From Vectrevirus T145P2, in sequence record OZ035802.1: 44,662 nucleotides of DNA; one strand, 5' to 3'. The notes beneath the pieces are model-generated. The model worked only from the letters and a program-made list of their open reading frames with translations. It did not search any database and had not been told where the DNA came from. How positions within the stretch are numbered: position 1 is the first letter of the stretch; every line of letters begins with the position of its first letter. The position numbers and the translations under genes were made by a program. Of this stretch, positions 10,325 through 10,654 are shown one piece after another.

Positions 10325-10654
10325 ATGGAACGCAACGCTAACGCTTACTACAACCTTCTGGCTGCAACTGTTGAAGCATTCAACGAGCGCATCAAGTACG
10401 ATGAGATTCGTGAAGATGATGATTACTCTGATGCACTGCATGAGGTTGTAGATAGCATGGTGCCAGTTTATTACAGCGAAATCTTTACTGTGATGGCTGC
10501 TGATGGCATTGATGTTGATTTTGAAGATGCTGGTTTGATTCCTGATACGAAGGATGTAACCAAGATTCTACAAGCTCGCATCTATGAAGCTCTTTATAAT
10601 GATGTACCAAATGACAGCGATGTAGTTTGGTATGAAGGCGAAGAAGAGGAATAA
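10325..10654 (+). CDS. ocr: Ocr-like DNA-mimic anti-restriction protein (T7 gene 0.3 homolog)
   Basis: 109 aa, very acidic; recognisable similarity to T7 Ocr as I recall it ([11 protein letters not shown]...[41 protein letters not shown]) and EEEE tail. Confidence 0.8.
   Translation: [109 protein letters not shown]

What the first reader, a model, noticed from the sequence alone, without database searches (positions are those of the whole stretch)
10325..10654. Clear Ocr (T7 gene 0.3) homolog in an SP6-like backbone
The 109-aa product aligns with T7 Ocr across the core ([11 protein letters not shown] / [33 protein letters not shown] / ILQARIYE) and ends in EEEE. Ocr mimics B-form DNA to block type I restriction-modification and inhibits BREX. 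Its presence in a phage whose polymerase and promoters are SP6-type suggests modular exchange of the early region.
Basis: partly seen in the sequence, partly recalled or inferred. Interest (0 to 1): 0.45.

Follow-up and report, generated by a model that had tools for sequence, protein, structure and literature searches.

The report
Known Ocr anti-restriction gene, K1E-type phage
This is a genuine but already well-known Ocr "DNA-mimic" anti-restriction gene, standard in K1E/K1-5/SP6-type phages; the one less ordinary point is that the gene alone has been swapped as a cassette between T7-like and SP6-like phages.

Summary
It matches Pfam ocr (108.9 bits, cutoff 25) and T7 Ocr structures (E~1e-27; 53% identity, ungapped).

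The window is a complete, permuted K1-capsule-specific Vectrevirus genome (K1E/K1-5 group). The same gene is already annotated there: K1E gp3 is 94% identical and vB_EcoP_B is 100% identical over 103 aa. SP6 has its own Ocr (gp5), proposed as anti-restriction in 2004. So Ocr in an SP6-type backbone is normal, not a surprise.

The "modular exchange" idea is partly right, at gene scale only. In 18 phages Ocr splits (100% bootstrap) into two allele classes, and each class occurs in both T7-like and SP6-like subfamilies.
- Window vs K1F: Ocr 81% identical, RNAP 33%.
- Window vs AAPEc6 (same genus): Ocr 48%, RNAP 98.9%.
- Flanks stay identical up to the ATG and from the stop codon.

Sequence features support a functional, host-transcribed early gene:
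- net charge -22
- 24 of 27 T7 acidic positions kept
- dimer residue F54 kept
- dN/dS 0.06-0.13
- position upstream of the first phage promoter
- leader with BoxA plus a T7-like hairpin

Activity was not tested. Verdict: already known; low interest.

The parts
10325..10654 (+). ocr coding sequence (109 aa, class-B Ocr allele; stop TAA followed by a second TAA)
   Evidence: Pfam ocr 108.9 bits; 53% identity to T7 gp0.3; 94% to K1E gp3; dN/dS 0.06-0.13.
10313..10317 (+). Shine-Dalgarno GAGGA, 7 nt before the ATG. It lies in the 3' base of the predicted leader hairpin.
   Evidence: Sequence; invariant or nearly invariant in 10 SP6-like leaders; fold.
10237..10319 (+). Long irregular three-tier leader hairpin between BoxA and the start codon (apical stem 10267-10290). 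Inferred RNase III-type processing site, analogous to T7 R0.3.
   Evidence: MFE -55.1 kcal/mol for 10176-10324, z -5.5. The same topology is predicted in 13 phages including T7, with different apical-stem sequences. Five pairs show compensatory changes. Cleavage was not tested.
10218..10230 (+). BoxA-type element GCTCTTTAACAAT, 107 nt upstream of the ocr ATG
   Evidence: Exact match to the published consensus GYTCTTTAANA (PMC5725501). It is one of four exact copies, all on the + strand and all in the early region. A BoxA lies 98-130 nt upstream of ocr in 12 of 18 phages including T7.
10176..10203 (+). Short hairpin preceding BoxA
   Evidence: predicted only.
9735..9763 (+). Best sigma-70-like promoter upstream (TTGACA-17-TACATT, 10/12), followed by a BoxA at 9797
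   Evidence: consensus scan only. The same promoter-BoxA unit lies directly upstream of ocr in CrRp3, PA45-9, cp4, Kenya-K32 and SP6.
8924..8996 (+). Two further sigma-70-like promoter candidates near the genome's left end (~8296), followed by a BoxA at 9149
   Evidence: left end placed by alignment to K1E nt 1.
10659..10772 (+). Downstream 37-aa gene (K1E gene 4 equivalent). This is the conserved 3' flank of the ocr cassette. Its likely ribosome-binding site is the GAGG inside ocr's poly-Glu codons.
   Evidence: No similarity to T7 gp0.4; no Pfam match.
10763..10783 (+). First SP6-type phage promoter after the left end. It marks ocr as lying in the host-RNAP-transcribed segment.
   Evidence: There is no phage promoter core between 8296 and 10771.
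11986..14613 (+). SP6-type single-subunit RNA polymerase (backbone marker used for the incongruence test)

Best explanation
The ORF encodes a functional Ocr-family DNA-mimic protein. It is an early gene of a K1-specific Vectrevirus (K1E/K1-5 group).

Inferred mechanism, by homology with T7 gp0.3:
1. The gene sits ~2 kb from the leading (left) genome end.
2. Host RNA polymerase transcribes it from sigma-70-type early promoters, through a leader carrying an rrn-type BoxA and a structured hairpin that is probably RNase III-processed.
3. The product is a small all-helical, highly acidic protein that dimerises through the conserved F54 interface.
4. The dimer's carboxylate pattern imitates bent B-form DNA, so it occupies the DNA-binding groove of type I R-M enzymes, and probably of BREX PglX/BrxX, before the rest of the genome can be attacked.

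Shown here: the homology, composition, conserved positions, purifying selection, gene position and transcription class.
Inferred: dimerisation, DNA mimicry, targets, Nus and RNase III involvement.

Evolution: the ocr ORF is a gene-sized cassette. The window carries the 'class-B' allele shared with K1F-type, Przondovirus and CR8-type T7-like phages. Some congeneric Vectrevirus (AAPEc6, EEc2) and SP6 carry the 'class-A' (T7-type) allele in the identical slot.
For: Homology.

Fold: AlphaFold model with pLDDT 72.9 and helices 7-26, 35-59, 78-96. Its only significant PDB neighbours are Ocr chains (1s7z, 7eew_B, 8v45_O, 9ex7_C, 8zek_B), probability 1.00, TM 0.55-0.60; the next hit has E>1.

Charge: 29 D/E against 7 K/R, net -22. 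24 of the 27 acidic positions of T7 Ocr residues 1-109 are acidic at the same ungapped position.

Dimer residue: F54 and neighbours I53, V56, M57 are identical. In T7, F54A abolishes dimerisation and F54V escapes PARIS (PMC9122126).

Selection: dN/dS 0.06-0.13 against eight class-B alleles. 427 homologue clusters were found; all 120 listed carry PF08684 and the long contigs among them are ~39-45 kb.

Early, host-transcribed position: no phage promoter between the left end and 10771; sigma-70-like sites upstream; BoxA and a T7-like leader hairpin.

Known equivalents: K1E gp3 at 94%, K1-5 gp3 at ~95%, vB_EcoP_B at 100% over 103 aa, all annotated Ocr.

Cassette exchange:
- 100% bootstrap split into two classes that each mix subfamilies.
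- Ocr identity does not track RNAP identity (Spearman rho -0.03 over 153 pairs). Cross-subfamily Ocr identity reaches 85.5% while RNAP identity is 30-36%.
- Window-K1F DNA similarity is confined to 10325-10650.
- Window-AAPEc6 flanks are identical up to the ATG and from the stop codon.
Against: The class-B allele differs from T7 Ocr exactly where the long C-terminal helix ends. It is 6 residues shorter, has Pro95, and its tail is only EGEEEE. The length of DNA it mimics and its target range could therefore differ.

The structure model is only moderately confident and is poor for residues 61-76.

Promoters, BoxA function and RNase III processing are pattern- or fold-based. The sigma-70 scan found no more sites than shuffled controls (6 found, 8.4 expected).

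The absence of EcoKI and EcoBI sites from the first ~12.7 kb fits the model but is weak statistically (my rough estimate, P about 0.06).
Confidence: 0.9

Rival explanations
1. Same fold, shifted job. The class-B Ocr (shorter C-terminal helix, Pro95) has a different target spectrum from T7 Ocr. For example, it could be tuned to R-M or BREX variants of K1 and Klebsiella hosts, or shaped to avoid Ocr-sensing abortive-infection systems such as PARIS. In that case the two allele classes persist because defence systems select for diversity.
For: Two deep classes (~48% identity) coexist within one genus whose RNAPs are 98-99% identical, and are exchanged ORF-precisely. The differences concentrate in the N-terminal helix and the C-terminal helix and tail. 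PARIS senses Ocr and can be escaped by point mutation (PMC9122126); it also responds to other small acidic proteins (PMC11464382). Chimeric alleles exist in cp4 and PRF-SP5.
Against: F54 and nearly all acidic positions are retained. dN/dS is low rather than elevated. No data on targets. From memory, T7 Ocr tolerates loss of many acidic residues and C-terminal truncation, so these differences may be neutral.
Confidence: 0.25
2. The main selected role is host takeover rather than anti-restriction. The protein would bind host RNA polymerase or H-NS as a DNA mimic and so shut down host transcription.
For: T7 Ocr binds RNAP and inhibits transcription; Ocr-RNAP structures 6r9b/6r9g are among the PDB entries with the T7 Ocr sequence (Ye 2020 as cited in PMC12707154). 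Ocr, ArdA and Arn interact with H-NS (same review).
Against: For T7 the phenotype of ocr loss is restriction sensitivity (PMC9122126). This reading is an additional activity of the same protein, not an alternative identity.
Confidence: 0.1
3. Decayed or non-functional remnant of an Ocr gene, or a chance acidic ORF.
For: None beyond the shorter C-terminus.
Against: Intact ORF with a Shine-Dalgarno site. dN/dS 0.06-0.13. 94-100% conserved in many isolates. E-values 1e-27 to 1e-51.
Confidence: 0.01

Closest known systems
K1E gp3 / K1-5 gp3 / vB_EcoP_B 'DNA mimic ocr' (Vectrevirus Ocr-like proteins)
   Same: Same gene at the same locus. 94% (K1E), ~95% (K1-5) and 100% over 103 aa (vB_EcoP_B) identity. 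Same flanking genes, leader and downstream SP6-type promoter.
   Different: Only a few substitutions (for example K24, D31, M45) and one or two residues of tail length. The window's neighbouring small genes differ from K1E (K1E gene 2.5 is absent; the gene 5 slot holds a different ORF).
T7 gp0.3 Ocr (PDB 1S7Z; Pfam PF08684)
   Same: Family, fold, acidic pattern (24 of 27 positions), F54 dimer residue, early host-transcribed position, and a BoxA-plus-hairpin leader ~110 nt upstream.
   Different: 53% identity. Different N-terminal helix sequence (MERNANAYY against MAMSNMTY). The C-terminal helix is 6 residues shorter and contains Pro95. Short EGEEEE tail; net charge -22 against -28. The gene lies ~2 kb rather than ~0.9 kb from the genome end and is preceded by several small genes. 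The backbone RNAP is only 34-36% identical.
K1F gp0.3 and other Kayfunavirus / Przondovirus / CR8 class-B Ocr
   Same: Closest alleles outside the genus (73-82% aa, 74% nt) and the same class-B signature. K1F shares the K1-capsulated E. coli host: the window encodes an endosialidase.
   Different: The backbone is T7-like (RNAP ~33% identical) and no flanking DNA similarity exists. K1F-type proteins carry an extra ~55-60-aa C-terminal domain that the window lacks. dS is saturated (~2.4), so any transfer is old.
SP6 gp5 and AAPEc6/EEc2 Ocr (class-A alleles in SP6-like phages)
   Same: Identical genomic slot and leader architecture; same family.
   Different: Only 46-48% identical to the window's protein. 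They are closer to T7 Ocr (64-77%).
Other anti-restriction strategies at the same genome position or of the same principle (T3 gp0.3 SAM lyase; ArdA, Arn DNA mimics)
   Same: Early anti-restriction function. ArdA and Arn are also acidic DNA mimics (PMC12707154).
   Different: Non-homologous. The only Pfam hit is ocr.

Membership tests
Ocr / T7 gp0.3 DNA-mimic family (Pfam PF08684) | Sequence match to the family profile above the curated threshold, covering the whole domain | tested here: met
   108.9 bits against gathering score 25; profile positions 5-97 of 101. PHROG 2568 E 2.8e-51.
Ocr / T7 gp0.3 DNA-mimic family (Pfam PF08684) | Significant, collinear alignment to the experimentally characterised T7 protein | tested here: met
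   E ~1e-27 to PDB 1s7z/2y7c over residues 7-104. BLASTP 53% identity with no gaps.
Ocr / T7 gp0.3 DNA-mimic family (Pfam PF08684) | Compact all-alpha Ocr fold | tested here: met
   Model with three long helices, pLDDT 72.9. The only significant PDB neighbours are five Ocr chains, probability 1.00, TM 0.55-0.60. Moderate model confidence; loop 61-76 is poorly predicted.
Ocr / T7 gp0.3 DNA-mimic family (Pfam PF08684) | Very acidic surface, with carboxylates at the positions that imitate DNA phosphates | tested here: met
   27% D+E, net charge -22. 24 of 27 T7 acidic positions (1-109) conserved in register. Which of these map onto phosphates was not checked against coordinates.
Ocr / T7 gp0.3 DNA-mimic family (Pfam PF08684) | Homodimer through the hydrophobic interface centred on F54 | tested here: inconclusive
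   F54, I53, V56 and M57 are identical to T7. F54 is invariant in the 42-sequence alignment. The role of F54 comes from PMC9122126. Dimerisation itself was not modelled or measured.
Ocr / T7 gp0.3 DNA-mimic family (Pfam PF08684) | Early gene near the leading genome end, transcribed by host RNAP before phage RNAP is made | tested here: met
   ~2 kb from the left end, upstream of the RNAP gene and of the first phage promoter. Sigma-70-like sites and BoxA lie upstream. Timing itself is inferred.
Ocr / T7 gp0.3 DNA-mimic family (Pfam PF08684) | Inhibits type I R-M (and BREX) in vivo or in vitro | not testable with these tools
   Needs plaquing or transformation assays, or binding to M.EcoKI or BrxX.
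rrn-type BoxA (Nus-factor recruitment element) in the ocr leader | Match to consensus GYTCTTTAANA on the transcribed strand, downstream of a host promoter | tested here: met
   Four exact GCTCTTTAACAAT copies at 9149, 9797, 9955 and 10218, all on the + strand. Consensus from PMC5725501. NusB/NusE binding was not tested.
T7-type RNase III processing site (R0.3-like) | Irregular hairpin with internal loops between early cistrons, cleaved by RNase III | tested here: inconclusive
   The predicted structure has the same topology as the T7 leader; z -5.5; compensatory changes in the apical stem. No Rfam family matched. Cleavage is untested. The T7 R0.3 position is recalled from memory (Dunn & Studier 1983).

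The most novel reading that the evidence does not exclude
Ocr exists as two ancient allele classes that are repeatedly moved, ORF-precisely, between T7-like and SP6-like phages and even between near-identical congeners. The conserved BoxA / hairpin / Shine-Dalgarno leader and the downstream gene would act as recombination linkers. The polymorphism would be maintained by bacterial systems that either resist or sense Ocr (type I R-M families, BREX, PARIS), so class-B proteins like this one would have a measurably different inhibition and trigger spectrum from T7 Ocr.
Probability: 0.2. Interest if true: 0.5.

Novelty: already known. Interest (0 to 1): 0.15.

Why it matters
As a gene call it adds nothing. 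Ocr homologues in K1E, K1-5, SP6 and other Vectrevirus are annotated in GenBank/RefSeq and discussed in the literature.

Its practical value is modest. It predicts that this K1-specific phage is insensitive to type I R-M and probably BREX, and possibly sensitive to PARIS, which is relevant to choosing therapeutic phages.

The comparative by-product is of more interest. In 18 phages, Ocr relatedness is completely uncoupled from backbone relatedness, with ORF-exact breakpoints and two deep allele classes within one genus. That gives a clean natural system for asking whether anti-defence genes are under diversity-maintaining selection. It also supplies ready-made allele pairs for testing Ocr specificity towards R-M, BREX and PARIS.

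Tried and rejected
- Rfam scan of the whole window at gathering thresholds: no family matched, so the leader hairpin could not be assigned to a curated RNA family.
- Downstream 37-aa gene against T7 gp0.4: no alignment. The idea that the T7 0.3-0.4 pair moved together was rejected.
- Pfam on the neighbouring small early ORFs and on the K1F C-terminal extension: nothing above threshold.
- The TATAAT at 10289-10294 just upstream of ocr as a dedicated promoter: rejected. No acceptable -35 lies at 16-18 nt, and the hexamer lies inside or next to the conserved hairpin.
- Whole-early-region exchange with a T7-like phage: rejected. blastn of 8200-14700 against K1F and T7 finds only the ocr ORF (K1F), or nothing but a short RNAP motif (T7).
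- Recent transfer from K1F-like phages: rejected. dS is ~2.1-2.4 (saturated) and nt identity is 74%.
- MAFFT-based consensus folding of the leader recovered only 15 pairs, because the apical stems are too divergent to align by sequence. Per-sequence folds were used instead.
- The original SP6 (Dobbins 2004) and K1F (Scholl & Merril 2005) genome papers are not held in the library. Priority statements therefore rest on a secondary citation and on database annotation.
- One bootstrap run timed out. The RNAP tree has no bootstrap, and truncated K1E and CrRp3 RNAPs distort it; pairwise identities were used instead.
- The 145-nt segment 9810-9954 as a structured RNA: its fold is no better than shuffles (z -0.54).

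Full report
OBSERVATION

The window has an ATG-initiated ORF at 10325-10654 on the + strand. A GAGGA Shine-Dalgarno lies 7 nt upstream. ORFs on the opposite strand here are short (36-63 aa) and have no support; every gene I examined in this genome is on the + strand.

Formal searches leave no doubt about homology:
- Pfam PF08684 'DNA mimic ocr': 108.9 bits (cutoff 25), E 2e-31, nearly full profile.
- PHROG 2568 'ocr-like anti-restriction': E 2.8e-51.
- T7 Ocr chains in the PDB: E ~1e-27 over residues 7-104.
- BLASTP against T7 gp0.3: 49/92 identical (53%), no gaps.

WHAT THE WINDOW IS

Megablast places the region, and the first 25 kb, in Vectrevirus (Autographiviridae, Molineuxvirinae). The best match is T145P2 at ~98%, followed by K1E, K1-5, ULINTec, vB_EcoP_R/B and others at 92-97%. 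K1E nt 1 aligns to window ~8296, so the window is a whole genome written in permuted form.

The RNAP (11986-14613) is 85% identical to SP6 RNAP, 98.9% to AAPEc6 and 34-36% to T7. Twelve GACACTATAR promoter cores occur, all on the + strand, against 0.2 expected. The 'SP6-type backbone' is therefore correct. An 811-aa endosialidase tailspike (5515-7950) shows it is a K1-capsule phage.

ALREADY KNOWN

The same gene is annotated in relatives:
- K1E gene 3, 'ocr-like anti-restriction / inhibitor of host endonucleases', 94% identical.
- K1-5 gp3.
- vB_EcoP_B 'DNA mimic ocr', 100% identical over 103 aa.
- ULINTec 'protein Ocr'.

SP6 itself has an Ocr-like gp5 in the same slot. A 2016 paper attributes to Scholl et al. 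2004 the proposal that it accounts for SP6 growth irrespective of Salmonella type I restriction (PMC4837284). A 2026 paper describes Ocr as conserved among Vectrevirus (PMC13005862). tblastn finds the family in 573 phage records. The large protein database holds 427 clusters; all 120 listed carry PF08684 and the long contigs among them are 39-45 kb.

ANATOMY AND LIKELY MECHANISM

The protein has 29 Asp+Glu against 7 Lys+Arg (net -22). In the ungapped register with T7, 24 of the 27 acidic positions of T7 residues 1-109 are acidic.

F54 and its neighbours I53, V56 and M57 are identical. [quoted passage not shown] F54 is also invariant in 42 class-B sequences.

An AlphaFold model (pLDDT 72.9) has three long helices. 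Its only significant PDB neighbours are T7 Ocr chains: free (1s7z), bound to a type I methyltransferase (7eew_B), bound to AriA of PARIS (8v45_O), and bound to BREX BrxX (9ex7_C, 8zek_B). All have probability 1.00 and TM 0.55-0.60, and the next hit has E>1.

dN/dS against eight class-B alleles is 0.06-0.13, so the gene is under purifying selection.

I therefore take it to be a working Ocr: an acidic homodimer that imitates bent B-DNA and blocks the DNA-binding site of type I R-M enzymes, and probably of BREX PglX/BrxX. Dimerisation, mimicry and targets are inferred by homology, not shown.

EXPRESSION CONTEXT

No phage promoter core lies between the left end (~8296) and 10771. The first one (10763-10783) comes just after ocr and the following 37-aa gene. 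ocr is therefore in the segment that must be read by host RNAP, as in T7.

Sigma-70-like sites lie at 8924-8953, 8968-8996 and 9735-9763 (TTGACA-17-TACATT). This scan does not exceed shuffled controls.

The 13-mer GCTCTTTAACAAT occurs exactly four times, at 9149, 9797, 9955 and 10218. All copies are on the + strand and in the early region. It matches the gamma-proteobacterial BoxA consensus GYTCTTTAANA (PMC5725501).

A BoxA lies 98-130 nt upstream of the ocr ATG in 12 of the 18 phages compared, including T7 (nt 814; 112 nt upstream). SP6 and K1E have one-base variants at that position.

Between BoxA and the Shine-Dalgarno, the RNA is predicted to form a long three-tier hairpin (10237-10319); the leader 10176-10324 folds at -55.1 kcal/mol, z -5.5. 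The same topology is predicted for T7 and for the other phages even though the apical stem sequences differ. Consensus folding finds five pairs with compensatory changes.

From memory, the T7 segment is the R0.3 RNase III site. T7 early transcripts are known to be cut by RNase III at specific sites (PMC6938266). I infer a BoxA / R0.3-like hairpin / SD / ocr expression module common to T7-like and SP6-like phages. Nus-factor binding and cleavage are untested.

EcoKI (2 sites) and EcoBI (8 sites) motifs are absent from 8296-21000, the first ~12.7 kb to enter. This fits Ocr acting before targets arrive but is weak statistically.

THE 'MODULAR EXCHANGE' CLAIM

I compared Ocr and RNAP from 18 phages: 11 Molineuxvirinae and 7 Studiervirinae.

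RNAP separates the subfamilies cleanly (30-36% identity between them). Ocr does not. An NJ tree splits with 100% bootstrap into two classes:
- Class A (MAMSNMTY... / ...QLTIDLW..LLNEYLEE): T7, YeF10, SP6, Kenya-K32, AAPEc6, EEc2 and PM85. Two chimeric alleles, cp4 and PRF-SP5, join this class; they have a class-B N-terminus and a class-A C-terminus.
- Class B (MERNANAYY... / ...ALYNDVxNDSxVVWYE, 6 residues shorter): the window, K1E, K1-5, CrRp3, PA45-9, K1F, Bas105, VLCpiA3d and CR8.

Identities to the window:

| Phage | Ocr | RNAP |
|---|---|---|
| K1F | 81% | 33% |
| AAPEc6 | 48% | 98.9% |
| SP6 | 46% | 85% |

For comparison, T7 and SP6 share 77% in Ocr but only 35% in RNAP.

Over all 153 pairs, Ocr identity and RNAP identity are uncorrelated (Spearman rho -0.03).

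At the DNA level, window-K1F similarity is confined to 10325-10650 (74%). The other cross-subfamily pairs likewise match only over the ORF plus at most ~25 nt. Window and AAPEc6 are near-identical right up to the ATG and again from the stop codon.

So ocr is a gene-sized cassette that has crossed between the two subfamilies at least twice, and is polymorphic within Vectrevirus. The conserved leader and the downstream gene probably provide the homology for allele replacement within SP6-like phages. dS against K1F-type alleles is saturated, so the cross-subfamily event behind the window's allele is old.

Ocr is native to this backbone. The unit of exchange is the ORF, not the early region. The nearest outside relatives are K1F/Przondovirus-type alleles, not T7.

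DIFFERENCES FROM T7 OCR THAT COULD MATTER

Class-B proteins differ from T7 Ocr in four ways:
- a different first helix;
- a C-terminal helix 6 residues shorter;
- a proline at position 95;
- a short acidic tail.

Whether this changes the length of DNA mimicked, or recognition by PARIS-like sensors, is unknown. That is the basis of the 'novel case' (probability ~0.2).

VERDICT

A correct, clean identification of a gene that is already annotated and discussed for this phage group. Novelty: already known. Interest: low (0.15). The allele-class and cassette pattern and the conserved BoxA-hairpin leader are the only parts that might repay further work.

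Noticed in passing
window 9149-9161, 9797-9809, 9955-9967, 10218-10230: Four exact copies of the rrn-type BoxA sequence GCTCTTTAACAAT, all on the + strand and all in intergenic leaders of the host-transcribed early region. The same 12-mer occurs once in T7 (nt 814) and three times each in K1E, SP6 and AAPEc6. This suggests Nus-factor modification of host RNAP on early transcripts. The repeats may also serve as recombination linkers between early-gene cassettes.
   Followed up: partly
window 9810-9954: A 145-nt non-coding segment sits between two BoxA copies and replaces K1E gene 2.5. Its ends are complementary (AGAGATTAGGCC... / ...GAGTCTAATCTCT). It is found in only 8 phage records, all Vectrevirus, at 98.7-100% identity. 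Its overall fold is no better than shuffles (z -0.54).
   Followed up: partly
window 10849-10974: The first gene after the SP6-type promoter (41 aa, MKLSPSAKGL...) is unrelated to the gene in that slot in K1E (gene 5, 75 aa) and AAPEc6, while the flanks are conserved. This is a second cassette replacement next to ocr. There is a weak sub-threshold DUF5976 hit (E 0.012).
   Followed up: partly
L003 (K1F) 1114-1623; proteins P0031-P0118: K1F-type Ocr proteins are 162-177 aa: an Ocr core plus a conserved ~55-60-aa C-terminal extension (EYWVVDxKTG...VEDINDNVVFDP). 58 of the 120 best database clusters have it, it has no Pfam match, and its function is unknown. It is absent from the window's protein.
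   Followed up: partly
L010 (cp4) 1677-2024; L011 (PRF-SP5) 504-887: Chimeric Ocr alleles with a class-B N-terminal part (M[KE]RNANAYY) and a class-A C-terminal helix (EQLTIDM..EEY). This indicates intragenic recombination between the two classes. The two phages belong to different subfamilies, yet their alleles cluster together (100% bootstrap).
   Followed up: partly
GenBank records hit (e.g. MG004687 mutPK1A2, MG775042 CrRp3, MZ398247 IME177, MT966872 P510, KT367885 vB_Kp1, MZ375235 T7): Several deposited genomes label the Ocr homologue 'protein kinase' or 'putative protein kinase'. This appears to be an annotation error propagated between records.
   Followed up: no
window 10640-10661: The poly-Glu codons at the end of ocr (GAAGAAGAGGAA) supply a GAGG about 10 nt before the ATG of the next gene (10659). 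The acidic tail coding sequence probably doubles as that gene's ribosome-binding site. ocr ends with two stop codons in tandem (TAATAA).
   Followed up: no
window 3931-5430 and 5515-7950: Two tailspike-type genes lie in tandem: a 499-aa protein with a pectate-lyase-like N-terminal match, and an 811-aa endosialidase with its intramolecular chaperone domain. This arrangement resembles dual-spike K1-5-type phages.
   Followed up: no
window 8296-21000: No EcoKI (AACN6GTGC) or EcoBI (TGAN8TGCT) site occurs in the first ~12.7 kb from the inferred left end. The whole genome has only 2 EcoKI sites (5.5 expected) and 8 EcoBI sites (10.5 expected). The pattern is suggestive but not statistically strong.
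   Followed up: partly
window 8400-8750: A cluster of short CTTAGT / GCCTTAGTG-type direct repeats lies near the inferred left genome end (repeat families D2, D4 and D6), upstream of the early promoters. Its function was not examined.
   Followed up: no
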